NCBI GenBank assembly: GCA_038087875.1
Contig: CM075988.1
Location: forward strand, 6,946,001-7,010,000
Reading direction: 5' to 3'
DNA from: Malacoraja senta
Taxonomy: Eukaryota
DNA length: 64,000 nucleotides
In this document: positions 1,946 to 63,214 of the stretch, piece by piece
Numbering within the stretch: position 1 is the first letter of the stretch
Layout of the letters: every line of letters begins with the position of its first letter
Notes under the pieces: model-generated
The model's input: the letters and a program-made list of their open reading frames with translations, nothing else
Told to the model about the DNA's origin: nothing
The model's database searches: none
Made by a program: the position numbers and the translations under genes

Positions 1946-4057
1946 TTCAAGTATTTCAAGAGATGACAACAAAGACATACTCAAAGAACATGAAGAGATG
2001 GGATTCAACAGATGATATGATGGAGGGAGATGCGTCACATTTATGGATAATTTAGCAAGGAGGGCATTCCAAGTAACAATGCAATGATCAGAGAGTGTTT
2101 TACAGTTGTACAGTGATAGTTATACAACTGACGCAAGTAGGTAAATGGAAGTACCTTAGATGGAGCATCTTGATTGGCATCGGCAACTCATCATCGCCAA
2201 TCAAGATGCCCCATCTAAGTCACTCCCATTTACCTGCATTTGGTCCATATCCCTCAGAAACCGTCCCATCCACATTACTGTCCAAACGTCTTTTAATGGA
2301 GTTGATAGGCAGGGGACAATATGGTGGGATTAGGCTGGAGAGCTCTTTTTTGACCACCATTGACACTGTGGGCTAAATAACTGTCCTGCATAAATTCTCT
2401 CTGAATCTGAGAGTTGCAACACAAAGGGAAATGTACATGTGGAAACCAATGAGCAAACTGCTATTGAATTTATGAGCAATTTTCTGATGTAAAGTTTCAA
2501 AACACGTCCCATGTGCCATTGAAGACCCCAAACCCTGGCAAGTACTGCAGAGATGCTGTTAATTGATGGTGGTTTCTGCTATTTGGCTAGCTGGCTACAA
2601 AAAAAGAGGAAAATTCACAACATTTGTTAATTCATTATTATTTATGCAAAGGTAGATATCCTCGTGTAATTCCAGATTAAGATTACAGCCACCTTTGTTG
2701 TCAAGAAGTGCCAACCTTCCCCCTTTAGGTTTATAATAGGATTGCTTTATATGAGGTGTGTTGCCATGGGTACGAGAACAAAGAGGCTGCAAGTCTTAAA
2801 ATTCCTTTAGTCTGTGGGCGGAACTGGTCAAAGCGGAGCGTAGCGTTTCTCCATGGAGCTATTTAAGTTTGCTGCATTACTGTTTAACCCTTTCAAGCCT
2901 TGGCATTATAGAACTAAATGTGATTTTTTTTAAGGTGCTGCTGGTGCTAGTTTACACCAAAGATAGATGCAAAACGCTGAATTAACTCAGAGGGTCAGGC
3001 AGCATCTCTGGAGAAAAATGAGTGATATGAACATTGAATTCAATAACTAGCTTCTACATGCACTCCTCTCCCCCCTCCCCTTGCTCCCCCCCCCCCACCC
3101 CCTCACGCCATCACTGGCCTCCCCCTTCTCCATTAAAAGTCGGCTAACCAACTTCACAGTTCACAACGATGCATCGCTTTTGGGGATCACACCGTACCTG
3201 GCCAACAATTGGTCTATCAGGGAACCTCCCTGCCTGAGGCCCTGATATGTCCTGGTCTTTCCTTGCTTTCAGATCCCCCCACCCCCCACAATCAGTCTGA
3301 AGAAGGGTCCCGACCCAAAACGTCACCCATCCATTTTCGCCAGAGATGCTGCCTGACCCGCTGAGTTACTCCAGCATTCTGTGTCTATCTTTGGCATTGC
3401 AGCAATGGGCTGTATAGTCCTGGTTTAGGGTAAATTCAAACGCTGTGCTCCATTCGATTCTGAGTCCCGAGACAGGAAGGAAAAATCACCCAGATTTCCA
3501 GCAGTTGTATGTGTATGTCAGTTTACGTCTCAGCTATGCAATTCACATTCCACAATCCATACGTCTGAATACCTGTACTGGCCTTTGTAAGGTTTTGACC
3601 AGAATGCCAGCCATTTAAAAAGCACATCTTCCTTCTGCGAAAAAAATAAATGAAGGAAATAACCGCAAAGTGCCGCAAAAGTTCCAATTTTGCATCCCAA
3701 GGTTGTTCCACAATTGTCAATGGAGAAGTTATTTTATTACAGATTAAACGTGATAGGAAATACCCCTTAAAGGGGCAAGCACAAATTGCATGCACTCGCT
3801 CATTCCAAATGGAGGTCGAGATCCTCTTTAGCCTGAACAAAGGTCATTCTCGGATGCTCTCTCCAATGTTTTATTGACCAATGTCAAACGTTAGCAATAC
3901 GAATCATTTCTAAGTGGTAGTATTTTAACTTTATGTAAAATAAATGAATAAAGTTGAAAGTGGTTATATTTTACGGCAGCTGTGAGTGGTTCATTTGTTT
4001 ATCGATCACCGTGTTCACGGAGGGTTTCAAGGCTGCGGGGAATTCAATGGCTGCCAA

Positions 4058-21809: not shown

Positions 21810-22825
21810 GGCTTGAATGTTAGAATCACACTGAGTAGTTCAGTAACCTTATGGTGACAGCATTTAAGAAGACTCTAGACAAACACTTGAATTGCCTAGG
21901 CAGAGGAGGATATGGCCAAATGCTGGAAGAAAGGATTAATACAGATGTGTGCCCAGAAGCTACAAAAGCTTGAAAGCACATACGGCCTTCCCCTCCATTG
22001 TCAAACCAATAAATGGCCCTCCCATAAGTTCAGGGGTAGTCCCGATCTTCCAACCTACTTTTATTACAGACACTGATCTTTCTCTCTATAACTGTAACGC
22101 TACAATGCTATAAAACTATATTCTGCACTCTGGTATTTTTCTCTTATTGTACCCGTTGTACTTGTGTATATTTGATTGTCCTCATGTATAGTATGATCTG
22201 ATTTAATTGGATAACAACACACAGCAAAAGGGTGTCACAGTGGCACAGTGGTAGAGTTGTTGCCTTACAGCACCAGAGCTGGGTTTGATCCTGACTACGA
22301 GTGCTGTCTGTATGGACTTTGTATGTTCTCCCTGTGACCGCCTGGGTTTTCTCCTGGAGCTCCAGTTTCTTCACCCATTCCAAAGATGTGCAGGTTTGTA
22401 GGTTAATTGGCTTCTCTAAATTGTCCCTTGTGTGTAGGATAGAACTAGTGTATGGGTGATTGCTGGTCGGCGCAGACTCGGTGGGCCAAAGGGCACGTTT
22501 ACACGCTGTATCTCTAAACCAAACAAAACGAAACAAAAGTTTTTCACTGCGCCTTTGTACACCAAACCAAACCACTGGTGGGCATGATAATTGTGGGCTG
22601 AACGACCTGATTCCATGCGGTACGATTCTATGACTCTTATCTACAATCAAATGCATTTGATATATTTTTGCAATGGCGACAAGCTGTGATATTTGACATG
22701 CTGTTATAAAACGTTACCATGTTTTCATATTGTTATCCGCAAAATCTTTTCTATGATTCTTCCCACTTTCCACATTATTCACCATCGATCCTCAGTGTCC
22801 CTCTAAATACTGCTTTTGTACTTAC

Positions 22826-23107
22826 TGTACACGGTCAGTTTGACCGGCGTGCTTCGAGAGTTGCTGATGGGGTTCTCCACTGTACAGCTGTAAATGTCAT
22901 CATCAGTTACGCGGACCTGTGAGATGGTCAGTGTTTTCTGATCACTGGACAAAGAGAACCTCTCGTCGCTTTCTAGGGGGTTCCCTCCTTTCAGCCATGT
23001 ATATATTGGTTTTGTTCCATTTTCATGCGAACAGTTTAATGTTACGTATTCACTCAGTTCCAATACTGTGGAGGATGATAAGACCACCACGGGCTTCGAC
23101 ACAGGGA
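22826..23107 (-). CDS. HEPACAM: HEPACAM exon 3 (IgC2 domain)
   Basis: Acceptor ttatccag|TC, donor TACA|GTAAGT, 282 nt; PVSKPVV...[17 protein letters not shown]...[10 protein letters not shown]...VKLTVY. Confidence 0.97.
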
Positions 23108-24842
23108 CTGGATAATCCAAGGCAGAAAACAGACAATGGGCACAAGGCTGTAAAACATAGAGTGTCCCATACAACAATAACAACTTGCAATTATATAACT
23201 TGTATGGAGTCAAATATCGACTCAGAGCCAGAAATTGAGACAAATTGGTACTTGGGGGTGTGGGGGAATGACGGGTGGTGTCAATGAAAGGCCACTTGCA
23301 CAAGAGTGATGGGTGAATGGGACTTAGTGGATACTGGCAGCAGAATTTTGGACAGCTCAGAGGGTGGAAGCAGAGATGCTTGCCAAGTAAATAGTCTGCA
23401 CCATTCAAATAGGTTATGCTCTGTCAATAGAGTGAATGCCATTCAAACAAAAGGTTTAGCTTTTATCCAAACTAATCTGGAGTCGGACATGAATTTGATT
23501 ATATTTAACTAGACATCTTTTACTTCGCTTCACCAATTCATTTCAGGGAGTTAAAAAGAGGAGAGAGTAAGAGGTGGGTCCAGTTGGCAAACTTAATAAT
23601 TCAGGTCCCAGTGTCCCTCGGCTCCCAGCATCGACCTCTTATCCCATCTCCAACATTCCCCCTCCTCTTGGACTCCTCCTGCCGGCCTTCTACCCTCTCT
23701 GGACCTTTTTATTTCCAACTGCCGGCATAACATCAACTGTCTTGACTTCTCCACACCCCTCACCTACCGACTCTGAAAAAAGTTCCCGACCCAAATCATT
23801 ACTTATCCATGTTCTCCAGAGATGCTGCCTGACCCGCTGAGTTACTCCAGCACTTTGTGTCCTTCTAATATTTCAGGAGCACAATTGGTTTCTTTGTTGA
23901 GGTACTACTGCTGGTAAATATGAAGTATGGACACAATTTGGTCTTTTTGCTGTCACATTATATGAAAATCTTTCTAGCATATTTGGACTCCAATTCTCTC
24001 AGAAACCATTCCATTCTTACCCGGTCGATGTCTGTATATCAACATTTTATAGCAGAGAGAAGGGCGATAACATCAGGAGCAAGAACCAGAATTGATTCTT
24101 CTTCCCTTCAGGATAGAGTATAACTGGAGCACCCGGTTCATTGTGACTAGGTGACACTGCACTGTCTGGTGCTGGACTGGGTCAGTCTGACCAGGACCAT
24201 ATGAAGTCTTGCTCTGGTCTTGTAGACTTCAATCAAAGAAATGCTAGGATGCATTACAATTAGCTAGAGTGTTGCTGGATTTAAACTGGGCCACATCAGA
24301 CCCAATCTTCATCTACGTGTAAATGAAAATTGTTCTACCTTCCTATCTCATGTGATCAATCCTGCCAAATCTGGAACAGGACAGAATTGGCAGTAATTCT
24401 CCTCTGAAGCTTTACATTTGTTGAAGCTCAGGAATCTGGGGTATAGAGTCTGAAGGAGGGTCCTGACCCGAAACATCACTCATCATCTTCCTCCAGAGAT
24501 GCTGCCTGACCCGCTGAGTTACTCCAGCACATTTGTGTCTACATTTGTGGAAGCTCATTGCCCTCTAAGCTCATACATTAAGAATGGGTATTGGGTCGTG
24601 GTGACTGGTGCCCGTAAAACTGTAATCAGTACAAAGTCAGTGCCTTTGTGAGAACAGAGGGATAATACTGGAGGGGAAATGCAAAACAATGTTCTAAGGT
24701 GGGAGGCAAAGAATAAAACTTTTGATATAATTGTTTGGTCATTTAGAGGCAAAGAATAATACTTTGTACTATTGTTCGGGTAGTTGGAGGCAAAGAATAA
24801 TACTAGTATTAGAACTGTTCAGGTAGTCTGCCATCAACTTAC

Positions 24843-38430: not shown

Positions 38431-39252
38431 TTATTGGATTATATGCTGGGTGAATGCACCCAAGTCTTTTACCAAGGATAGTGGAATCAAACACCAGAGG
38501 ATATAGGTTTAAGGTGAGAAGGACAAGATTTAATATGAACCTGAGTGGCAACTTTTTCACTCAGAGGTTGGTAGGTAATTGGAACAAGCTGCCAGAGGAG
38601 GTAGTAGAGGCAGGTATTAAAACAGCATTTAAAAGGATTGCATGGATAGGAAATGTTATAGGCCAAATTCAGACAGTAGCTTAGATGAGGCATTTTGTTT
38701 GGCATCGACGAGTTGGGCCCAAGGGCTGTTTCTGTGCTATATATCTCCATGACACTATGCTGGAAGTTGCATTTGACCTTTTATTAACTTCTTTGGATGG
38801 AAAATAAAGACGTTGTATTTACTTCTATCTTTAATTGAAACTTTCAGTCCCCCAGAGACGGCATGCATTGTAATCAATGGTACGAAGCTCTTCAACATCA
38901 AAGCCACTCAAAAGGCTTGTGATAATGTTCTCAACAGCTCGACTGTTGTTTGACGAATAATAATTCAGATGCAGTCATGTTTAGCAGAAAGACCAATCAA
39001 ATTCCTCATTAAATCTCTTGTTCGCCATAGATAAAGACTTTAAAGATGAACAATGAATGTTCTAGGCTCCAATGTGGCAAAATCATTTTATTTTCAGAAA
39101 TAAAATTGCCCGCTTCTTCTATAATCTATTTGCTCCAACGTGCTTACATAACACAGGAAAATTGGTCACCTGGTCCCTCAAGCCTGCTCTGCAATGAAAA
39201 ATGACCAAGCCTGATCCTCTCTGTGCCAGTTGCCTCAACCCCTCTCTGTGCC

Positions 39253-41234
39253 GCGTCGATCTCTACAAAGCTGAGGCCACGCGCCAACTCTCGGACACCT
39301 CCTCCTACTTACCCCTGGACCATGACCCCACTGACGAGCACCAGGCCACCATCTCCAGCACCATCACCGACTTCATCCACTCCCACGCCCTGCCCGACCG
39401 AGCCTCCAACCTCATCGTTTCCCAGCCCCGCACAGCCCGCTTTTACCTTCTCCCCAAAATCCACAAACCTGACTGTCCCGATAGACCCATTGTCTCTGCC
39501 TGTTCGTGCCCCACCGAACTCATCTCCACCTACCTCGACTCCATCCTATCCCCCTTGGTTAAATCCCTCCCTACCTATGTTCAAAACACCTCAGACACTC
39601 TCCGTCATCTCCGCGCATTCCACTCTCTAGGCCCTCACCCCCTCATCTTCACCATGGACGTCCAGTCATTGTACACCTCCATCCCCCACCAGGATGGTCT
39701 CGAAGCCCTCTGTTTTTTCCTCGACCGTAGAAGCAATCTATACCCGGCCACTGACACCCTCCTCCGCCTAGCGGAGCTGGTCCTTACACTTAATAACTTT
39801 TCATTTGACTCCTCCCATTTCCTCCAAATACAAGGCGTAGCTATGGGCACACGCATGGGCCCCAGCTACGCCTGCCTCTTTGTCGGGTACGTAGAACAAT
39901 CCTTGTTCAATGCGTACCAGGGCCCCATCCCCGACCTCTACCTCCGCTACATCGATGATTGTTTTGGTGCCACATCCTGCACCCACACACAACTGACTGA
40001 CTTCATCCGCTTCACCACCAACTTCCATCCGGCACTCAAATACACCTGGACCATTTCTGACACTTCCCTACCATTCCTTGACCTCACTATCTCCATCGCA
40101 GGTGATAGACTCCTTACCGACATCCACTACAAACCTACCGACTCCCATGGCTATCTGGACTACACTTCTTCCCACCCTGCTTCCTGTAAGGACTCCATCC
40201 CCCACTCCCAATTCCTCCGTCTACGCCGCATCTGCTCCCAGGATGAGGCGTTCCACACCAGGGCATCTGAAATGTCCTCATTCTTCAGGGAACGGGGGTT
40301 CCCCTCCTCCACCATAGATGAGGCTCGCGCCAGGCTCTCTCTCCCCATCCCCCCACTCACAACAAGGGCAGAGTCCCCCTAGTCCTCACCTTTCACCCCA
40401 CCAGCCGTCACATACAACAAGTGATCCTCCGTCAGTTTCGCCACCTCCAACGTGACCCCACCACTCGCCACATCTTCCCATCTCCCCCCATGTCTGCCTT
40501 CCGCAAAGACCGCTCCCTCCGTAACTCCCTTGTCAATTCTTCCCTTCCCTCCCATACCACCCCCTCCCCTGGTACTTTCCCTTGCAACCGCAAGAGATGC
40601 AACACTTGTCCCTTCACCTCCCCCCTCTACTCCATTCAAGGACCCAAGCAGTCGTTCCAGGTGCGACAGAGGTTCACCTGCATCTCCTCCAACCTCATCT
40701 ATTGCATTCGCTGCTCTAGATGCCAGCTGATCTACATCGGTGAGACCAAGCGGAGGCTTGGCGATCGTTTCGCCGAATACCTCCGGTCGGTCCGCAATAA
40801 CCAACCTGAACTCCCGGTGGCTCAGCACTTCAACTCCCCCTCCCATTCCGTATCTGACCTCTCTGTCCTGGGTCTCCTCCATGGCCACAGCGAGCAACAC
40901 CGTAAATTGGAGGAAATGCACCTCATATTCCGCTTGGGCAGTCTACATCCTGGGGGCTTGAACATTGAATTCTCCCAATTCTGCTAGCCCTTGCTGTCCC
41001 CTCCCCTTCATCAGCCATCTGGTTGTCTCCTCCCCTCCCCCAGCCCTCGGGCTCCTCCTCCGCCTTTTTCCTTTTTTCCTTTCTTCTCCCCACCCCCTAT
41101 CAGTCTGAAGAAGGGTTTCGGCCCGAAACGTTACCTATTTCCTTCGCTCCATAGATGCTGCTGCACCCGCTGAGTTTCTCCAGCATTTTTGTGTACCTTC
41201 GATTTTCCAGCATCTGCAGTTCCTTCTTTAACAC
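39253..41234 (+). mobile_element. 5'-truncated Penelope-like retroelement (RT + Cys-rich linker + GIY-YIG endonuclease, Neptune-like), frameshifted
   Basis: RT motifs FTMDVQSLYTSIP, QGVAMGTRMGPSYA, YLRYIDD; linker CNRKRCNTC; endonuclease NLIYCIRC..IYIGETKRRLGDRF; 19-bp TSD CCTCTCTGTGCCAGTTGCC at 39216-39234 and 41235-41253. Confidence 0.93.
41102..41135 (+). ncRNA. Minimal hammerhead-ribozyme-like motif in the Penelope 3' terminal repeat
   Basis: CTGAAGA (41105-11), extra A, stem II GGG..CCC, GAAAC, palindromic ACGT, NUH site. Confidence 0.65.
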
Positions 41235-42706: not shown

Positions 42707-45428
42707 GACAATCAAACTGCACACAGCAAGAAAGCACTGAAACATGATCAAATAAATTGTTGTTAGTGGAGCTAGCTGAAAAATAAATAACAGCCAAGAC
42801 AGCAAGGAAAACTGTGCATTTCTCCAAATTCAGGGCTTTCAACATCTGTGAAATCTGTGAGGTCCTGTCATGACCACTGAGCAGAACTTTGTATTGTAAT
42901 GTTAAATCTCTCTAGCTTGGCTGCCTTAATGTTTTGTCAGTAGCATAACTCCTTGGCAAAGCTCTCAACCCAACACTGAGCAGTCCACTGAGCTGCCTTT
43001 ATGTTCCTTGTTCTGGTCATCTGTCTCATTCTAATTCTAATTAGTTTGGCTGCAACAATTTAAATCCTGCTGGTAGACGATTTAAGTAGCTCCCCAACTT
43101 TGCCTCTCATTAAAAAATACATATTAACATTTTGGCCTTGCTTATTGAATATTAAATATAATCAGTTTTGTTATAAATGTAAAATTATCTATTGATTGAC
43201 AAACCTTTATATATTCAGACAAGATTGGTATGAACGTGAATAGCTTAGTTCACGTTCTGCGAGACAAGGCAAGGCAAAAGATGGCCATAGCTGGAAAACA
43301 GTAGGCGTTTGGGGATTCTCACTTCATCTGACTTTTGTAACTTACATTCTTTTTATTTTTACACCTCCTCATAATCTTCTAGACCACCGTGTGGTCTTTA
43401 CTCTTCCCAGCTGAAAATAGCCAATCCTTCCCGGCTGACCATGGTATTGCCACTGTAGAAACAAGGAACTGTAGATGCTGGCTTAGATAAAAGGACACAA
43501 AGTGCTGGAGTAACTCAGCAGGTCAGGCAGCATCACTGGAGAACATGGATAGGTGATGTTTCGGGTCAGGGCCCTTCTTCATACTGATTGTGGGGGGTAT
43601 CAATCTTAAGAAGGGTCCGATTTGAAACGTCACCTAAACATGTTCTCCAGAGATGCTGCTTGAAATGCTGAGTTACTCCTGCATGTGTCCTAATGGCATT
43701 AGCAAAGTTTGGCCCTTCCTCATACCTCTTGATGCCTTGTCTTCCGTATAAGTATCCTTGTGATATTCTCATCAAGAAATAAGATCAATTTTCTGATTTC
43801 TTACATTTGTGTATATTGCTCTATGACAATCACAATGAGGTCAGTGTTCAAAATAATTAACCCAACTTTCTTTGAGGTCCCTGCACCAAACATCTTGAGG
43901 GGTTTATCTGCCCTATGTGTCTTGATTGCATCCTGCTTTGTAGCTGATGTGCCATAAATGGAGCAAAAGAGCATCCAGAGTAAGATGCAATATTATATCT
44001 CTTTCATTCTAATAATTTCTTCACACCTCAGATTCAGGATAGTCGAAGAGTGAATGATTAACGGTACAAGAGTATTATAGTCCATCGAACATTTCTGGAG
44101 CAGGTTTGTTTGAAACTAGCAACCTTACATCAACATACCAAGAGCCTTAGATCACACAAAATAATAAATGAAAGAGTTGAATTTAAACAGTGCCTTTCAT
44201 TATCTTGCAAAGTTGTAAAGTAGTTTAAAATCATCGCATTATGTTTGAACAGAAGCCACTGTTAGAACCATAGCCCAGCCCACAAACAGAAATGTGATCA
44301 TTAGCATACAATTATTAATTTTAGTCATTTTAATTGGAGATAAACATTGGCCAGAAAACCAGTAGAATCCACTGCACTTCATCAAAAAAGTGCCAAATGG
44401 ATTTTCATTCTACTCTTGAACAGGCAGAAGAGTTTTGTTTAATATCAATTCCAAATGGCAGCACTTATTTGGTAGTGCAGCATTTCTTTAACACTAAAGT
44501 GTTGCATCAGCTAAAATGTTGTACATTTATTTTTGACAGAAGGCAATGGATAATATTGTGCAGTGTGTTTGGGGGTGGTTAGTGTGAGTTTGGGGGGTGG
44601 TTAGTGTGAGTGTGATGCCGCAGCCCCCCCCCCCCCCCGCAAACACGCGTTGGGAAAACAGCCCGCCAACAGTCCCTCTGTCTTTAAGACGGAACTGCAG
44701 ATGCTGGAAAATCAAAGGTACACAAGAAAACTGAGGTATTAATCTCCATTTATTTTATCTCACCAATTGTACAGGGATCAACAACATCATTTAAGAGGAC
44801 TGTATGGCTCCTTTTAAATCAGCTCCAAGAATGGACTGATTTACTATGTTTCGTTTCTGTGAAGAAATTCTCATTGTCTTTGTTTCTCAGATTATATGTA
44901 ATGATAAAGATTAAAAATATTGTCACTTTTCTCAGTTTGAAAACAGCAAAGTTTATCCAAGTTGCCTTACAAAAATGGGAATTGTCACCAAGTTTGGAAA
45001 TTCTTAAATCTGTCTAAATGTTTTTAGATTATACATATTTTGCAAGCATAATCGGTGCTAATGGAAGTCCTTCAAATCAGCTTTCACTCTTGACAACAGC
45101 AGAAAATGAATTTTCAATAGATGTTGTTATATTTTGCAGATCAAAGACACAAATTGATTTATGAGTAGCAAAATGTGTAATTTCATAAGTGATTTAGTGC
45201 TACAATGTGGTAAGAGATACTGATCATGCTATTCTCTAATGCAATATTAATGCTTATTTTATCTATGTGTTCCACAGATAATTTTACATATATTTGCCAT
45301 ATATTGCCTTACAACATAGAAGGCCACTGAGCAGGCCATGCCAGCTCTCAGCAATCCTGTTCCCTACTTATTATCCTGCAACTGGGCCGCACAGTGGTAC
45401 AACTGCTGGAGCTGCTGCTGCTGCTAGG

Positions 45429-45574
45429 CTTCTCCGTGGATTGTCACCTTGTCGTGGTGGAGAAGCTTGTGTGGTCCTGAGATCCTGAGAGCAATGCCGT
45501 CTGGAGCTATGCTCCTGGTAGGGTCACCCATGGCGGTAAGGTCGAGAGGGAGGTCTCTGACAAAGAGCAATCCA
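45429..45574 (+). ncRNA. HDV-like self-cleaving ribozyme fold
   Basis: P1 CTTCTCC/GGAGAAG, P3 ACC/GGT around L3 TTGTCGT, P2 TGGATTG/CAATCCA, J4/2 C-AAA (C45561), large P4 insertion. Confidence 0.72.
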
Positions 45575-45827
45575 ACCAAGACCTCAACGGTGGAACAGGC
45601 GGAGGATGATGGCTGACTTTAGTGGAGCGTCACAACGGCTGGGAAGGCGAATGAAGGCTGCAGCAGAAAAGGGTCCCCGGTCGTCTTGGATTCCATGCCA
45701 CTGGATTCTGACCCAGATCTGTCAAGGACCGTGTGGTGTCCCCACGTTAAACAAAGTCACGCACAGGCGTCCTCCATGAGAGGACAGTCATACTCGTTTC
45801 GAGTGACCGCCGATGATGATGATGATG
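45429..45827 (+). mobile_element. Non-coding RTE-derived short element (RTE 5' UTR + RTE 3' tail, (GAT)n end) nested in a V-SINE
   Basis: RTE-type 5' motifs CACCTTGTCGTGGTGG and GGTAGGGTCACCCATGGC; 3' CTCG..CGAG stem followed by (GAT)n. The host SINE A box lies upstream (~45390) and its B box downstream (~45833). Confidence 0.78.
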
Positions 45828-46088
45828 ACCTGGGTTCAATCCTGACCTCGGGTGTTGTTTGTGTGGAGTTTGTATGTTCTCGCTGGGACTGCAGATTTCC
45901 TCCGGGGTGCTCCAGTTTCCTCCCATATCCCAAAGATGTGCAAATTTGTAGGTTAATTAGCCTGTGTGAATTGCCTCCTTTGTATGCAGGGAGTGGATGC
46001 AAAAGTGGGATAACATTGAACTAGATTGAAAGTGGTCAGCATGGACTAGGTGAGGCGAAAGACCTGTTTCTATGCTGCATCTCTAAAA

Positions 46089-46090
<2 letters not shown>

Positions 46091-46129
<39 letters not shown>

Positions 46130-46199
46130 CATCTCCCCCTCTCCCCCTCTTCCCCTCTCCCCTCTCTCTCTCTCTCACTCTCACTCTCACTCTCACTCC

Positions 46200-46254
<55 letters not shown>

Positions 46255-46272
46255 TCTCACTCTCTCTCTCTC
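46091..46272. repeat. Compound (CT)n/(CTCTCA)n microsatellite
   Basis: Directly visible; sits at the tail of the V-SINE. Confidence 0.97.
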
Positions 46273-59071: not shown

Positions 59072-59470
59072 ATGTCAGTCGTCGTGGCTATCCCTCGAGA
59101 CCGAGGATGATGGTCTACGTTCTGTTGTTTTTATGGACTCTCAGGTGGCTTATGAGTCCAATCCTGGCTTTGAAAGTTCTTCGACATTCAGGACAGGTTA
59201 TTCCAGATGGCAGATCGGGCTTCGGTTGTTGCTGCCTCTCTTTCCGTTTTCTTATTTTTTCTTCTAATTCTGTGCATCTCTTGGCTCCAAAGGTCGCTGT
59301 TCCTTCTTGGATAATGGTTCGCCAGAGTTTCCCCCTTAGATCCAGCACACTTAAGACGATGTTGGATCTCGTCAGCAAGGTCGATATTGGAGGAGAGGTG
59401 ACTTCCAAGGTACGGAAAGTGATCCACATTTTCCAGGGTTGTTTCACCAAGTTGAATTGACGATTCTTTC
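59072..59470 (-). mobile_element. RTE (BovB-like) LINE 3' fragment with internal deletion
   Basis: LENVDHFPYLGSHLS...EIQHRL joined directly to the C-terminal CPECRRTFKARIGLISHLRVH zinc motif; short tail with CTCG/CGAG stem. Confidence 0.85.
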
Positions 59471-59571
59471 CGATTTCCCACCATGTGCATATTGGTTAAT
59501 ATAGTGATTCGAGCAATAGGATCCTTCCACAATAGGTCACTGCAGATTATTTTATTACAGATTATTACCCT

Positions 59572-62328
59572 AGGTCACTCCAAGATGGCGTCGCGTGCAC
59601 AACGCGAGGCTCTGCGTCTCTGTAGTTTTTGTAATTTAGTTATTTTTCTGTTAATAATTACCTTAGTTTTCGCCCGGAGCACCCGAGCGAAGACTCTATA
59701 CGGCCGTCAGGAGCTATTAGAGCTCGGCCGTCTCTGCGTTACGAGTCCCAGAAGCGACTTTCAACTGCCGCCGGAGATCGCCAGGACACCGTGGTCTAGC
59801 GGGCCAGCTCCCCCGACAGGAAGTGCCCTGAGGCGGCGCAGGGACCGCAAACAAAGACGTGGGAAGCGGGGAGGACATCTAGCTAGGCTGAAATTAAATC
59901 CTCACCAGCCAGCTCTGCCCAGCATTTTCCTCGCGAATGTCCGGTCCCTGGTGAGTAAAATCGATGAACTAAGGCTGCGGATCACCACACACAGACGGAT
60001 CGCCGACTGCAACGCCATGGTCTTTACTGAAACATGGCTCAACGGCAACATCCCGGACAACGCCATCGAGCTGGAGGGGCGCACTGTCTTCAGGGCCGAC
60101 AGAACAGCGGAGGGCTCCGGTAAGACCAAGGGCGGCGGACTGTGCATCTATGTGAATAACACATGGTGCACGGACGTTGTTAGGATTGGTAGTCACTGCT
60201 CTGCTGACCTGGAATACCTGATGTTAAAGTGCAGGCCCTTCTATTTGCCCAGAGAATTCACATCGACTGTTATCACGGCAGTCTATGTACCCCCGAACGC
60301 TAATGCCAGGCTAGCAATGGAAGAGCTGCAAGCTGCTATCAGCAAACATCTATCTGCTCACCCTGAGGGGGCATTTATTGTTGCGGGTGATTTCAACCAC
60401 TCCGACCTTAAAACTGTACTCCCCAGGTTCCATCAGCATGTTTCCTGCCCAACCAGAGGAAACAATATTCTGGACTTAGTTTACACTAATATTACTGAAG
60501 CCTACAAAGCCCTCCCCCTCCCCCACCTTGGTCAGTCTGACCACCTCTCTCTGTTCCTGCTCCCCAAATACACACCTCTGATCAGACGTGTGAAACCTAC
60601 CACGAGGACAGTGAAGGTCTGGCCTGAGGGGGCTGTCTCTGTTTTACAGCAGCAGTTTCAGCAGACAGACTGGAGTCTGTTTGCTACTCAGTCCACCTTC
60701 AATTCACAAGTGGACATCAACTCATACACCTCAACAGTTATGGACTATATAAAATTCTGCACCGATAATGTCACTACCCACAAAGAAATAAAGACCTTCC
60801 CTAACCAGAAGCCGTGGATGAGCAGGGAGGTCAGACTTCTACTGAAGGCTCGCGATGCCGCTTTCAGATCTGGCGACGCTGAGGGATACAGCTCATCCAG
60901 GGCCAATCTGAAAATGGGAATTAGGAATGCCAAACTCAATCACAAACGGCGGATTGAGGAGCACTTCCAAAACAACTCTGACCCCAGGCGCATGTGGCAA
61001 GGAATCAAATCCCTTGCCGATTACCAGAAAGTTAACACCCCTCCCCCAGACAACGCCACCCTTCCTGACGAACTAAACCATTTCTATGCTCGCTTTGACC
61101 GGGATAACAAAACCCCAGCCATCAAAGTTGCTCCACCCCCAAATGAACAACCCCTCAGTCTCTCCACCTCTGCTGTACAAGATGCACTGAGCAAGGTGAA
61201 TGAGCGCAAAGCTGCCGGCCCCGATGGCATCCCTGGCCGGGTGCTTAGGGCATGTGCTGGACAACTATCCCCAGTCTTTACCGACATTTTCAATCTCTCA
61301 CTGGCCCAGGGTGTTGTCCCCACTTGCCTCAAGACATCAACCATCGTGCCAGTGCCCAAACAGTCAGCCACAGGGAGCCTCAACGATTTCCGCCCAGTGG
61401 CACTCACCCCTGTCATTGCTAAGTGCTTTGAGCGGCTGATCTTGGCTCACCTCAAAGCCAGCTACTCCCTCTTCACCCACGACTGCATCCCTAAGTACGG
61501 ATCCAACGCCATCATTAAGTTTGCTGACGACACCACGGTGATAGGACTGATCAGTGACAACGATGAGTCAGCCTACAGAGAGGAGGTCCAGCACCTGACA
61601 ACCTGGTGTGCCAACAATAACCTCGTCCTCAACTCCAAGAAGACGAAGGAAATTATTGTCGACTTCAGGAAGGTCAGAGGGGGCAGACATACCCCCATCC
61701 ATATAAACGGGACTGAGGTGGAGCGCGTCTCCAGCTACAAATTCCTCGGGGTACACATCTCGGAGGATTTGTCCTGGTCCCTCAACACCTCCAAGCTGAT
61801 CAAAAAGGCACAGCAGCGCCTTTACTTCCTGAGGAGGCTCAAGAAAGCCCACCTGTCCCCCCAGATCCTGACCAACTTCTACAGGTGTACCATCGAGAGC
61901 ATCCTGACCACCTGCTTCACGGTATGGTACAGCAGCTGCACTGTTGCGGACAGGAAGGCACTACAACGGGTGGTGAAAACCGCGCAGCACATCATCGGTG
62001 CCCCACTCCCTGCCATGGATGCCCTCCACCGAAAACGGTGTCTGAAACGGGCTGGGAAGATCATTAAAGACCCCTCCCACCCCAACCATGGACTGTTTGC
62101 CCTCCTCCCATGCTGAACTCGGAGTCCCGCCGATAGATTCCTCCGGTCCCTCCGTCCCCATTGTTAATTATTCTGTATTTTTGATTATTCTGTATCCTCT
62201 TTTTTTTTAAATTTCTATATTGCACTACTACTACGGACTGACGCAAAACTGCATTTCGTTGTACCCATACTCAGTATTTGTGCAATGACATTAAAGTTGA
62301 ATTGAATTGAATTGAATTGAATTGAATT
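59572..62328 (+). mobile_element. Near-full-length Rex1/Babar-type LINE (APE + RT) with internal deletions, (AATTG)n tail
   Basis: ORF from ATG 59585: ANVRSL, FTETWL, GGGLCIYVN, AGDFN, SDH (APE); KAAGPDGIP, DFRPVALT, KFADD, KAQQRLYFLRRLKK (RT/C-terminus); tail ATGACATTAAAG(TTGAA)n. Confidence 0.9.
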
Positions 62329-63214
62329 AAGTTTACTTCCAACTACTATATAAATGTATGTGTTTCTCTCTATACCATTCTTTTATTGGATGAAATAAAT
62401 ATTTTCTCATCTCCCCTCAAATCCTTCTACCAATTACTTTAAATCTTTGCCTTTGATATTTGTCCCCTCAACAACAGAAAATTCTATTTTAGACCCTCTT
62501 TACAGTACCTCTCAGTTAAATCCCCACTCAGCATTATCTGTTCCAAAGAAGACATGCTTAGCGTATCTATCCTTTCCCATAACCTTTGCAGGGTTTTGAT
62601 TCGAAATGTTGACTATCCCTCTAACTTCCGAGACGCTGCCTGACCCGCTGAGTTCCCCCAGCTGTTTGTTTGTTGCGAAGGTAGACACAAAATGTTGGAG
62701 TAACTCAATGGGACAGGCAACATCTCTGGAGAGAAGGAATGGATAACGTTTCGGGTCGAGACCCTTCTTCAGAATAGGAAACATCACCCATTCCTTCTCT
62801 CCAGAGATGCTGCCTGTCCCGCTGAGTTACTCCAGCATTTTGAGTCTAGCTTTGATTTAAACCAGCATCTGCAGTTCTTTCCTACACTGTTTGCTGCTCA
62901 TGTTTCCAACATCTGCTGCCTCTTGTGCCACCTCTCCCTTAACTAGTTTGCTATGCTAGCAACATCCTCATAAATCTCCTCTGTGTCGTCGAGTGTTTCA
63001 AATAATATGGTGATCAGAACAGTACACTGTACTCAATTGCGATCAATCTATCATGGTATGGAGTTCTGGTATCACTTCCCAGTTCTTTTTATCCTCCATA
63101 AGACTTTTTAACCACTTTGTTGACCCTTCATACAACAGGACTTACGTCAAAGATCCCTTTGCTTTATGCTCAACAACCCCCATTTTACTATCATACCAGT
63201 AAATCTCTTCAGAA

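What the first reader, a model, noticed from the sequence alone, without database searches (positions are those of the whole stretch)
45429..45827. Ribozyme-headed non-coding retroelement: HDV-like double pseudoknot fused to an RTE 3' tail
Seen: every HDV-like pairing is in order. P1 CTTCTCC (45429-35) pairs with GGAGAAG (45459-65); P2 TGGATTG (45437-43) with CAATCCA (45568-74); P3 ACC/GGT closes the 7-nt L3 TTGTCGT. A possible one-pair P1.1 (G45451-C45466) sits next to a U-U, a ~90-nt P4 domain contains a GGAGC-TAT-GCTCC hairpin, and J4/2 C-AAA places C45561 at the catalytic position. The predicted cleavage site lies at the apparent 5' boundary of a ~400-bp element that has no ORF or Pol III boxes of its own and ends in a CTCG/CGAG stem and (GAT)n. 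Established: HDV-like ribozymes process the 5' ends of R2, RTE and L1Tc retrotransposons; as recalled, L1Tc also starts with a C-G pair and ACC/GGU P3, and CPEB3 has a single-pair P1.1. Inference: this is a promoter-less SINE-like family that cuts itself out of read-through transcripts and borrows RTE machinery. Here it is nested between the A and B boxes of a V-SINE, antisense within HEPACAM intron 1.
Basis: partly seen in the sequence, partly recalled or inferred. Interest (0 to 1): 0.8.

Follow-up and report, generated by a model that had tools for sequence, protein, structure and literature searches.

The report
Ribozyme-headed non-coding LINE deletion derivative
This 398-base non-coding mobile-element copy begins exactly at a conserved RNA fold that looks like the self-cutting hepatitis-delta-type ribozyme, and it is a shortened offspring of a full-length RTE-like jumping gene, which is a known kind of arrangement.

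Summary
All the stated pairings are at 45429-45574. The element belongs to a family with at least 3444 first-look candidates, target-site duplications and (GAT)n tails. Homology stops at C45429.

The "head" was not fused on from elsewhere. Bases 1-349 are the 5' UTR, and the last ~48 bases the 3' end, of a single-ORF endonuclease + reverse-transcriptase LINE. The element is therefore a bipartite non-autonomous LINE, a kind already described for RTE, Ingi, Vingi and R2 (PMC5786205).

Two further RTE-like LINE lineages in this genome carry homologous heads at their own 5' ends. Across the three lineages, four of the seven P1 pairs and one P2 pair change on both sides and stay paired. L3, the single P1.1 pair and the J4/2 C-R-A-A motif stay fixed.

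This supports a real HDV-like fold. Cleavage itself is untested. No Rfam model matches, the fold is no more stable than shuffles, and one RNA-seq run shows no 5'-end pile-up.

Verdict: a new member of a known kind, of moderate interest.

The parts
45384..45428 (+). 5' part of the interrupted host repeat (V-SINE-like, tRNA-related head)
   Evidence: Sequence. In one search, joints in DNA contigs skip 45422/45427 to 45827 (uninterrupted copies of this repeat), and the loose-end consensus before 45827 continues the repeat.
45429..45826 (+). Whole element: a bipartite non-autonomous LINE copy of 398 nt, with an 18-nt deletion at 45738/45739 relative to the family
   Evidence: 40 of 40 scored matches at 88-100% identity, with at least 3444 first-look candidates. 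Boundaries and target-site duplications in other copies.
45429..45435 (+). P1 5' strand; the predicted cleavage site is immediately 5' of C45429
   Evidence: P1 cells 91.7% paired; pairs 2, 3, 5 and 7 change on both sides between lineages.
45437..45444 (+). P2 5' strand (TGGATTGT; the last base forms U.G with G45567)
   Evidence: P2 was not part of the covariance model. Pair 21/183: UA 60, CG 14. Pair 25/178: UG 45, CG 31.
45446..45458 (+). P3 (ACC/GGT) closing L3 TTGTCGT. L3 G45451 pairs with C45466 (single-pair P1.1).
   Evidence: P1.1 GC in 79 of 80 rows; P3 pairs 28/39 and 29/38 CG in 78 and 77 of 80 rows.
45459..45465 (+). P1 3' strand (GGAGAAG)
45466..45560 (+). J1/4 and a branched P4 domain of about 95 nt, including hairpins GGAGC-TAT-GCTCC and GGG-TCA-CCC
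   Evidence: Constrained folds. P4 helices 10, 11 and 12 have pairs that change on both sides (for example 83/138: GC 55, AU 14; 84/137: UG 47, GC 31).
45561..45566 (+). J4/2 CAAAGA, with C45561 at the position of the catalytic cytosine
   Evidence: The other lineages read CGAAGA and CGAA. C45561 could alternatively pair with G45469.
45567..45574 (+). P2 3' strand (GCAATCCA)
45575..45777 (+). Non-coding body, corresponding to the rest of the LINE 5' UTR (element positions 147-349)
   Evidence: 11 of 11 LINE 5' regions carry positions 1-349 contiguous with the LINE's own downstream 5' UTR.
45778..45811 (+). LINE 3'-end module with stem ACTCG (45792-96) / CGAGT (45800-04)
   Evidence: 91% identity over 45 nt to the 3' end (L105) of the LINE at G000:C627:289860-292844.
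45812..45826 (+). (GAT)5 tail
   Evidence: The number of GAT units varies among copies.
45827..46088 (+). 3' part of the interrupted host repeat

Best explanation
The element is an internally deleted, non-coding derivative of a full-length single-ORF (endonuclease + reverse transcriptase) RTE-like LINE. It consists of the LINE's 349-nt 5' UTR joined to the last ~48 nt of its 3' end plus (GAT)n.

Its first 146 nt fold as an HDV-like double pseudoknot. The likely life cycle is as follows. A copy is transcribed as part of a longer host or read-through transcript (inferred). The fold cuts the RNA immediately 5' of C1, giving a precise 5' end (inferred from fold, motifs and the genomic 5' ends; not assayed). 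The LINE's proteins, supplied in trans, recognise the 3' stem plus (GAT)n module and copy the RNA into a new site by target-primed reverse transcription, leaving target-site duplications (shown by copy anatomy).

A sister subfamily kept the same head and body but exchanged the tail for that of another LINE.
For: (1) A real, mobile family. There are at least 3444 first-look candidates, and 40 of 40 scored matches are 88-100% identical. Target-site duplications and variable (GAT)n are seen.

(2) A fixed 5' end at the P1 start. This holds in 30 of 48 distinct copies, with the rest mostly truncated by 2-12 nt. In DNA contigs of two runs, 122 and 97 contigs diverge just before 45429.

(3) Origin from a LINE. 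The tail matches the 3' end of the LINE at C627 (91% over 45 nt). In 11 of 11 copies of that LINE's 5' region, element positions 1-349 are contiguous with the LINE's own UTR. Six of the eleven have unrelated upstream flanks and five share one flank. The ORF aligns to a 1000-aa endonuclease + RT protein over residues 30-992 in one frame (29%, E 4e-112), with Pfam Exo_endo_phos and RVT_1.

(4) Homologous heads in other lineages. Heads sit at the 5' ends of two other RTE-like LINE lineages. RTE-A has at least 770 candidates, and 14 of 15 fetched copies start at its P1. Four of four copies that retain the ORF N-terminus carry the head about 285 nt upstream of it. RTE-C has at least 488 candidates, and 16 of 16 copies start at its P1. 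The copies were picked from best-scoring hits, so these fractions lean towards full length.

(5) Covariation. A covariance model built from two lineages found all 17 heads of the third lineage full length, at 54-97 bits. On that 80-row alignment, 93.1% of cells pair against 86.4% when shuffled (0 of 500 shuffles reach it). Both-side-changed cells number 195 against 59 (0 of 500). Slid controls pair at most 55.8%. P1 pairs 2, 3, 5 and 7 switch U-A/C-G or C-G/G-C. P2, which was not modelled, has one double change and two wobble transitions. RNAalifold recovers P1 without constraints.

(6) Conserved core. L3 reads UUG(U/A)CGU, the P1.1 G-C pair is kept, and J4/2 reads C-R-A-A in all lineages.

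(7) The competing MFE helix shows no covariation and breaks in the other lineages.

(8) Literature. HDV-like ribozymes at LINE 5' ends, and bipartite non-autonomous LINEs, are established for RTE, R2 and Ingi/L1Tc (passages read in PMC5786205, PMC6765202, PMC3185411, PMC3774820).
Against: No cleavage was measured.

No Rfam HDV-like model matches any of the heads, even at E up to 10.

The 146-nt RNA is no more stable than shuffles (z +0.22; 118 of 200 shuffles fold at least as well). Its MFE uses P2 plus an alternative helix instead of P1/P3.

Several features are non-canonical:
- C-G instead of a G.U wobble at the cleavage site.
- One-pair P1.1.
- 6-nt J4/2.
- Either a long J1/4, or a 4-pair helix (39-42 with 132-135) that would sequester the putative catalytic C. 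That helix is possible in 95.9% of cells and is neither supported nor excluded by variation.
- In lineage RTE-C, one P3 pair is an A-A mismatch.

The covariation comes from only three lineages of one genome (about five independent double changes in P1/P2). The alignment was also fitted to P1/P3/P4.

In one poly(A) RNA-seq run, no place where many molecules begin was reported. In that run, 98 reads cross 45429 into one shared flank. These reads come from one variant copy with two changes in the P1 3' strand, and the RNA strand is unknown.

The RTE clade name rests on architecture and on an automatic cluster name, not on phylogeny.
Confidence: 0.72

Rival explanations
1. The conserved 5' fold is a structured 5'-UTR element (an internal RNA polymerase II promoter as DNA, or a protein-binding or translation element as RNA) and does not cut itself. 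The sharp 5' end is a transcription start site.
For: The 5' ends would look the same in genomic copies. C45561 can be drawn paired with G45469 in nearly all rows. No Rfam HDV-like hit was found. No 5'-end pile-up was seen in RNA reads. The L1Tc Pr77 region is both promoter and ribozyme (PMC3383444 abstract in the listing; PMC3185411 discussion), so a promoter role is plausible on its own or in addition.
Against: The covarying helices are arranged exactly as P1/P2/P3 of the HDV fold. The invariant unpaired bases sit where the catalytic core lies: L3, the P1.1 pair and J4/2 C-R-A-A. The P1 start coincides with the element's first base in three lineages. A promoter alone does not explain compensatory changes in RNA helices.
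Confidence: 0.2
2. The HDV-like pairings are a chance pattern in an ordinary repeat.
For: A loose descriptor matches at chance level (3 hits against a mean of 2.1). Even the strict descriptor hit 4 times in 340 simulated windows. The MFE z-score is +0.22.
Against: The strict hit lies exactly on the family's 5' boundary. Homologous heads in two diverged lineages keep the pairs through compensatory changes, whereas the rival MFE helix does not.
Confidence: 0.03
3. It is a classical SINE transcribed by RNA polymerase III from an internal promoter derived from a small RNA.
For: Size of about 400 nt, high copy number and a LINE-type tail.
Against: ARAGORN finds no tRNA-like gene. No match to any Rfam small-RNA family was found. 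The whole head and body is the 5' UTR of a LINE.
Confidence: 0.03

Closest known systems
HDV-like self-cleaving ribozymes at the 5' ends of non-LTR retrotransposons (R2, RTE, L1Tc, Baggins)
   Same: Double-pseudoknot order P1-P2-P3-L3-P3'-P1'-P4-P2'. Predicted cleavage is at the element's first base. The host is a promoter-poor LINE. L1TcRz likewise has a single-pair P1.1 (PMC3185411 discussion) and starts with C (primer sequences in its Methods). A variable P4 and few invariant positions are described for R2 (PMC3774820 section 16).
   Different: The hosts here are vertebrate LINE lineages. There is no match to any Rfam HDV-like model. The cleavage-site pair is C-G, P4 is branched and about 95 nt, and J4/2 is 6 nt in two lineages. 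Activity is untested. The RTE ribozyme paper (Ruminski et al. 2011) was not held and is known here only through citations in PMC6765202 and PMC5786205.
Bipartite (ORF-absent) non-autonomous LINEs, e.g. RTESINE2/WALLSI3/MAR4 (RTE), NARTc (L1Tc), R2 internal-deletion elements
   Same: It keeps only the 5' and 3' parts of the parent LINE, retains the parent's true 5' end, and is far more numerous than the parent. Tail exchange also occurs. PMC5786205 (abstract and discussion passages) links this class to 5' ribozymes in RTE, Ingi and R2.
   Different: A new family in another host. Here the ribozyme-like head has comparative support from three LINE lineages in the same genome.
Ribozyme-bearing SINE-like elements and retrozymes (Schistosoma Sm-alpha hammerhead SINEs, hammerhead retrozymes)
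   Same: Non-coding retroelements that carry a small self-cleaving motif (PMC6765202 section 11).
   Different: Those use hammerhead ribozymes, Pol III or circular-RNA intermediates, and tandem arrangements. This element has an HDV-type fold and dispersed single copies with target-site duplications.

Membership tests
HDV-like self-cleaving ribozyme | Nested double pseudoknot: P1 (~7 bp) whose 3' strand directly follows P3/L3, and P2 pairing the J1/2-side strand with the 3' end | tested here: met
   (sequence); 93.1% of cells paired, with both-side changes in 4 of 7 P1 pairs and 1 P2 pair.
HDV-like self-cleaving ribozyme | Unpaired catalytic C at the start of J4/2, followed by purines or A | tested here: inconclusive
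   C-R-A-A is conserved in three lineages. However, the C can also be drawn paired with G41.
HDV-like self-cleaving ribozyme | P1.1 between L3 and J1/4, and a conserved G in L3 | tested here: met
   One G-C pair in 79 of 80 rows. A single-pair P1.1 is documented for L1TcRz. The importance of the L3 G is noted in PMC3774820.
HDV-like self-cleaving ribozyme | G.U wobble at the base of P1 (cleavage site) in the HDV and CPEB3 ribozymes (recalled) | tested here: not met
   C-G in 63 of 77 cells. L1Tc also starts with C, so this is not universal among retrotransposon ribozymes.
HDV-like self-cleaving ribozyme | Site-specific Mg2+-dependent self-cleavage giving a 5'-OH product | not testable with these tools
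   Only indirect evidence: genomic 5' ends at C1. One RNA-seq run gave no 5'-end signal.
HDV-like self-cleaving ribozyme | Match to a curated Rfam HDV-like model | tested here: not met
   0 relevant hits at E up to 10. These models are narrow and cannot encode the pseudoknot.
Bipartite non-autonomous LINE | Consists only of the 5' and 3' regions of an autonomous LINE, without an ORF | tested here: met
   Positions 1-349 match the LINE 5' UTR in 11 of 11 copies. The tail matches the LINE 3' end.
Bipartite non-autonomous LINE | Retroposed copies with target-site duplications and the parent's 3' tail | tested here: met
RTE clade (parent LINE) | Single ORF of about 1000 aa with APE-type endonuclease + RT, an element of about 3.3-3.8 kb, and a very short 3' UTR ending in a short tandem repeat | tested here: met
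RTE clade (parent LINE) | RT phylogeny placing it with named RTE references | not tested
   No named references were at hand. The only leads are 29% identity over the full length to the RTE-A type and an automatic cluster name, 'Craniofacial development protein 2'. The link of that name to RTE is recalled.
Classical SINE | Head derived from tRNA, 7SL, 5S or snRNA with a Pol III promoter | tested here: not met

The most novel reading that the evidence does not exclude
These heads define a distinct, uncatalogued branch of HDV-like ribozymes in vertebrate RTE-like LINEs. Its marks are a C-G cleavage-site pair, a one-pair P1.1 and a large branched P4. The branch is shared by at least three LINE lineages and sets the 5' ends of thousands of insertions. 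Its non-coding derivative has become a promoter-less, tail-swapping parasite of more than one LINE. It would thus be a 'SINE' whose only head is a ribozyme.
Probability: 0.55. Interest if true: 0.55.

Novelty: new member of a known kind. Interest (0 to 1): 0.42.

Why it matters
If the head cleaves, it explains how promoter-less LINEs and their thousands of non-coding derivatives in this vertebrate genome obtain exact 5' ends from read-through transcripts. It would add a ribozyme lineage that current Rfam models miss. It would also give a clean natural example of the proposed link between 5' ribozymes and bipartite non-autonomous LINEs, including exchange of the 3' tail between partner LINEs. 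Every intact copy inside an intron or UTR would also be a potential RNA-cutting site in a host transcript.

Tried and rejected
- Rfam scans of the region, of the 176-nt core alone, and of heads from the other lineages found no HDV-like match.
- The search of earlier findings by sequence, place and words returned nothing relevant.
- Looking for the partner LINE with the 81-nt tail as query failed: all 30 fetched loci were copies of the same non-coding family, full length or 5'-truncated.
- A PF00078 scan of the genome gave 159,856 candidates, and the loci could not be cut. It led nowhere.
- The LINE in the window (59456-62113) ends in (TTGAA)n and is not the partner.
- Covariation within the family: none, because all 48 copies belong to one lineage. 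L049 and L050 turned out to be copies with internal deletions, not separate subfamilies.
- L084 was first read as a chance insertion upstream of a LINE. One search overturned this.
- Thermodynamic stability as evidence was rejected (z +0.22).
- The alternative MFE helix 18-32/100-114 has no comparative support.
- The look-up of sequencing runs: no RNA holder listed.
- The RNA raw reads (X24) were dominated by one variant copy of unknown strand, so they neither show nor exclude cleavage.
- Ruminski et al. 2011 and Webb et al. 2009 were not held. Their descriptors and RTE ribozyme sequences, and any supplements, could not be compared.
- HEPACAM identity of the host gene: the PDB search gave only generic Ig-domain matches.
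- Complex prediction and the structure tools were not used, as they are not relevant here.

Full report
**Observation**

- P1 CTTCTCC/GGAGAAG
- P2 TGGATTG/CAATCCA
- P3 ACC/GGT around the 7-nt loop TTGTCGT
- G45451-C45466 next to a U-U
- the GGAGC-TAT-GCTCC hairpin
- C45561 followed by AAA

P2 can be extended by T45444.G45567. That leaves one unpaired base between P2 and P3, and a 6-nt J4/2 (CAAAGA).

I wrote a strict descriptor: P1 of 7 Watson-Crick pairs, P3 of 3, P2 of at least 7, and C-N-R-A within 3 nt of the P2 3' strand. It hits the window once, at 45429, and hit 4 times in 340 simulated windows. A looser version is at chance level. The motif alone is therefore only suggestive.

No Rfam family matches, even at E up to 10 and with the core given alone. 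ARAGORN finds no tRNA-like gene.

**The element is a real retroposon with a fixed 5' end**

The 398 bases match at least 3444 first-look candidates in the 1.94-Gb genome, and 40 of 40 scored matches are 88-100% identical.

In 30 fetched loci, the flanks become unrelated at both ends. Target-site duplications of 8-13 bp are visible, and the number of GAT units varies (further examples).

After dropping six duplicate loci, 30 of 48 distinct copies begin within one mismatch of CTTCTCC. Two more are full length with extra changes. The rest are 5'-truncated by about 2-12 nt.

These copies were the best-scoring hits, so the fraction leans towards full length. What matters is that homology never continues upstream of C1.

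In DNA contigs of two public runs, 122 and 97 contigs diverge just before 45429, with low agreement among their flanks. The same call shows uninterrupted copies of the surrounding V-SINE-like repeat, so the nesting is real.

**What the element is**

A search with the tail alone returned only copies of the same family.

A stray 42-nt match in L020 led to a sister subfamily with at least 2022 candidates. It has the same first 349 bases but a different tail ending in TAAG(AAG)n.

In one of those loci, a 74%-identical relative of the head appeared. It starts a family with at least 770 candidates. Its members are mostly internal-deletion derivatives of a LINE with a (TAAG)n tail.

I call this lineage RTE-A. 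Its features are:
- The ORF has RVT_1 and DUF6451.
- Its homologues are proteins of about 1000 aa with Exo_endo_phos + RVT_1 + DUF6451, on contigs of 3.2-3.7 kb from fishes and molluscs.
- The stop codon lies within about 5 nt of the tail repeat.
- The nearest named atlas clusters include 'Craniofacial development protein 2'. I recall this as an RTE-derived annotation.
- Four of four copies that keep the ORF N-terminus carry the head about 285 nt upstream of it.

A second lineage, RTE-C, has an ORF 36-38% identical to that protein and at least 488 candidates. It has a further diverged head, again at its 5' end.

Finally, the 3' end of a third LINE (C627:289860-292844) matches the element's own tail, 91% over 45 nt. 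The 3' end of a fourth LINE matches the sister subfamily's tail.

The 5' region of the C627 LINE family has at least 137 candidates. In 11 of 11 copies it carries element positions 1-349 contiguous with the LINE's own UTR. Six of these have unrelated upstream flanks, and five share one flank and are probably duplications.

That LINE has endonuclease and RT domains. It aligns to the RTE-A-type protein over residues 30-992 in a single frame (29%, E 4e-112). The CR1/L2-like LINE of the window aligns only over 127 residues.

The element is thus the LINE's 5' UTR joined to its last ~48 bases: a bipartite non-autonomous LINE.

**Is the head an HDV-like ribozyme?**

Within the family there is no covariation, because all copies descend from one lineage. 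Between lineages there is.

A covariance model built only from this family and RTE-A (P1, P3 and P4; P2 cannot be encoded) found all 17 RTE-C heads. They matched full length, at 54-97 bits, each beginning at its own first base.

On the resulting alignment of 80 distinct rows:

| Measure | Observed | Shuffled | Shuffles reaching observed |
|---|---|---|---|
| Cells forming a standard pair | 93.1% | 86.4% | 0 of 500 |
| Cells changed on both sides | 195 | 59 | 0 of 500 |
| Covariation score | 0.233 | 0.134 | 0 of 500 |

Sliding the 3' partners by 1-3 columns gives at most 55.8% paired.

- In P1, pairs 2, 3 and 5 alternate between U-A and C-G, and pair 7 between C-G and G-C.
- In P2, which the model did not see, one pair changes U-A to C-G and two pass through U.G.
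- P4 sub-helices also covary.
- L3 (UUGUCGU or UUGACGU), the G-C P1.1 pair and J4/2 C-R-A-A are conserved. In RTE-C, J4/2 is exactly four bases.
- RNAalifold recovers P1 unconstrained once the single gap of RTE-C is placed in J1/2.
- The helix that dominates the single-sequence MFE (18-32 with 100-114) has no covariation and breaks in both other lineages.

Caveats:
- These are three lineages of one genome, so the double changes are few events.
- The alignment is fitted to P1/P3/P4.

**Evidence against activity**

- The RNA is no more stable than shuffles (z +0.22).
- The cleavage-site pair is C-G, not a wobble.
- P1.1 is one pair.
- RTE-C has an A-A mismatch in P3.
- C45561 could pair with G45469 in a short helix that variation neither supports nor excludes.
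- In one stranded poly(A) RNA-seq run of a related or the same organism, 562 reads lay on the stretch. No position was reported where many molecules begin. Also, 98 reads cross 45429 into one shared flank.
- Those reads come almost entirely from one variant copy with two changes in the P1 3' strand, and the RNA strand is not known. This is weak evidence against abundant cleaved RNA and says little about intact copies.

**Comparison with what is known**

- HDV-like ribozymes process the 5' ends of R2, RTE, Baggins and L1Tc (PMC6765202 section 11).
- L1TcRz has a one-pair P1.1, starts with C, and is shared with the non-autonomous NARTc (PMC3185411 passages).
- R2 ribozymes have a variable P4 and few invariant bases (PMC3774820 section 16).
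- Kojima 2018 (PMC5786205, passages) defines bipartite non-autonomous LINEs. It notes that they are reported only from RTE, Ingi, Vingi and R2, that they keep the parent's true 5' end, and that tails can be exchanged. It links this class to 5' ribozymes.

The present element fits that description in every tested respect. My searches listed no paper describing such a head in a fish or other vertebrate RTE-like LINE. However, the key RTE paper was not held, so I do not claim that it is absent from print.

**Verdict**

| Claim | Probability |
|---|---|
| The fold is a real, selected HDV-like structure | about 0.9 |
| It self-cleaves | about 0.75 |

It is a new member of a known kind, of moderate interest.

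Noticed in passing
window 39198-40984 (+): Two adjacent open frames with RVT_1 and a weak GIY-YIG match, which suggests a Penelope-like element.
   Followed up: no
window 59456-62113 (+), tail near 62330-62370: An 886-aa open frame with endonuclease, RVT_1 and ALKBH8_N matches, followed by a (TTGAA)n tail. It is a different LINE clade and unrelated to the element studied.
   Followed up: partly
window 22806-23423 (-): An Ig-domain exon (Ig_3/I-set). Its best PDB relatives are CEACAM, contactin and other generic Ig proteins. The HEPACAM name was not confirmed.
   Followed up: partly
L061 (reverse strand, 3307-3741 of the reversed locus) and L062 3347-3750: A sister subfamily with the same head and body but another LINE's tail, ending TAAG(AAG)n, with at least 2022 candidates. 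This is a tail exchange between partner LINEs.
   Followed up: partly
L063-L075, base before the first base of the RTE-A head: The base just upstream of the element is T in 10 of 14 full-length RTE-A copies. This may be an insertion-site preference or an extra templated base. No such bias was seen in the studied family.
   Followed up: no
L091, L094, L095, L092, L104 (J4/2 of RTE-C heads): The putative catalytic C lies in a CpG. It reads T or G, or its neighbouring G reads A, in several dead copies, as expected from CpG decay after insertion.
   Followed up: no
L086 530-580, L089 545-600, L063 about 190-240, L087 530-575: A second conserved block just downstream of the head (GGTCCTCCAGGTTGG... 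then GGGGTTAAC.ACCCC-like) is shared by RTE-A and RTE-C and, partly, by another LINE family. Its function is unknown.
   Followed up: no
window 45429-45826, run X24: One variant copy of the family (G45436C, G45460C, A45463G, T45475A, C45476T and others) dominates the RNA reads. It is read through from a single upstream flank, so it is probably embedded in an expressed transcript of that organism.
   Followed up: no
L084, L117, L118, L119, L126: Five copies of the full-length LINE 5' end, on small contigs, share the same upstream flank. This suggests tandem or segmental duplication of a LINE-containing unit.
   Followed up: no
window 45428/45466: In this copy, the base before the cleavage site is G and could pair with C45466. 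That would extend P1 at the expense of the single P1.1 pair, an effect reported to lower L1TcRz activity.
   Followed up: no
window 46088-46270: A long (CT)n / (CTCTCA)n microsatellite lies directly after the host repeat.
   Followed up: no
window 34610 (+) and 37527 (-): Two further matches to the loose HDV-like descriptor, at the rate expected by chance.
   Followed up: no
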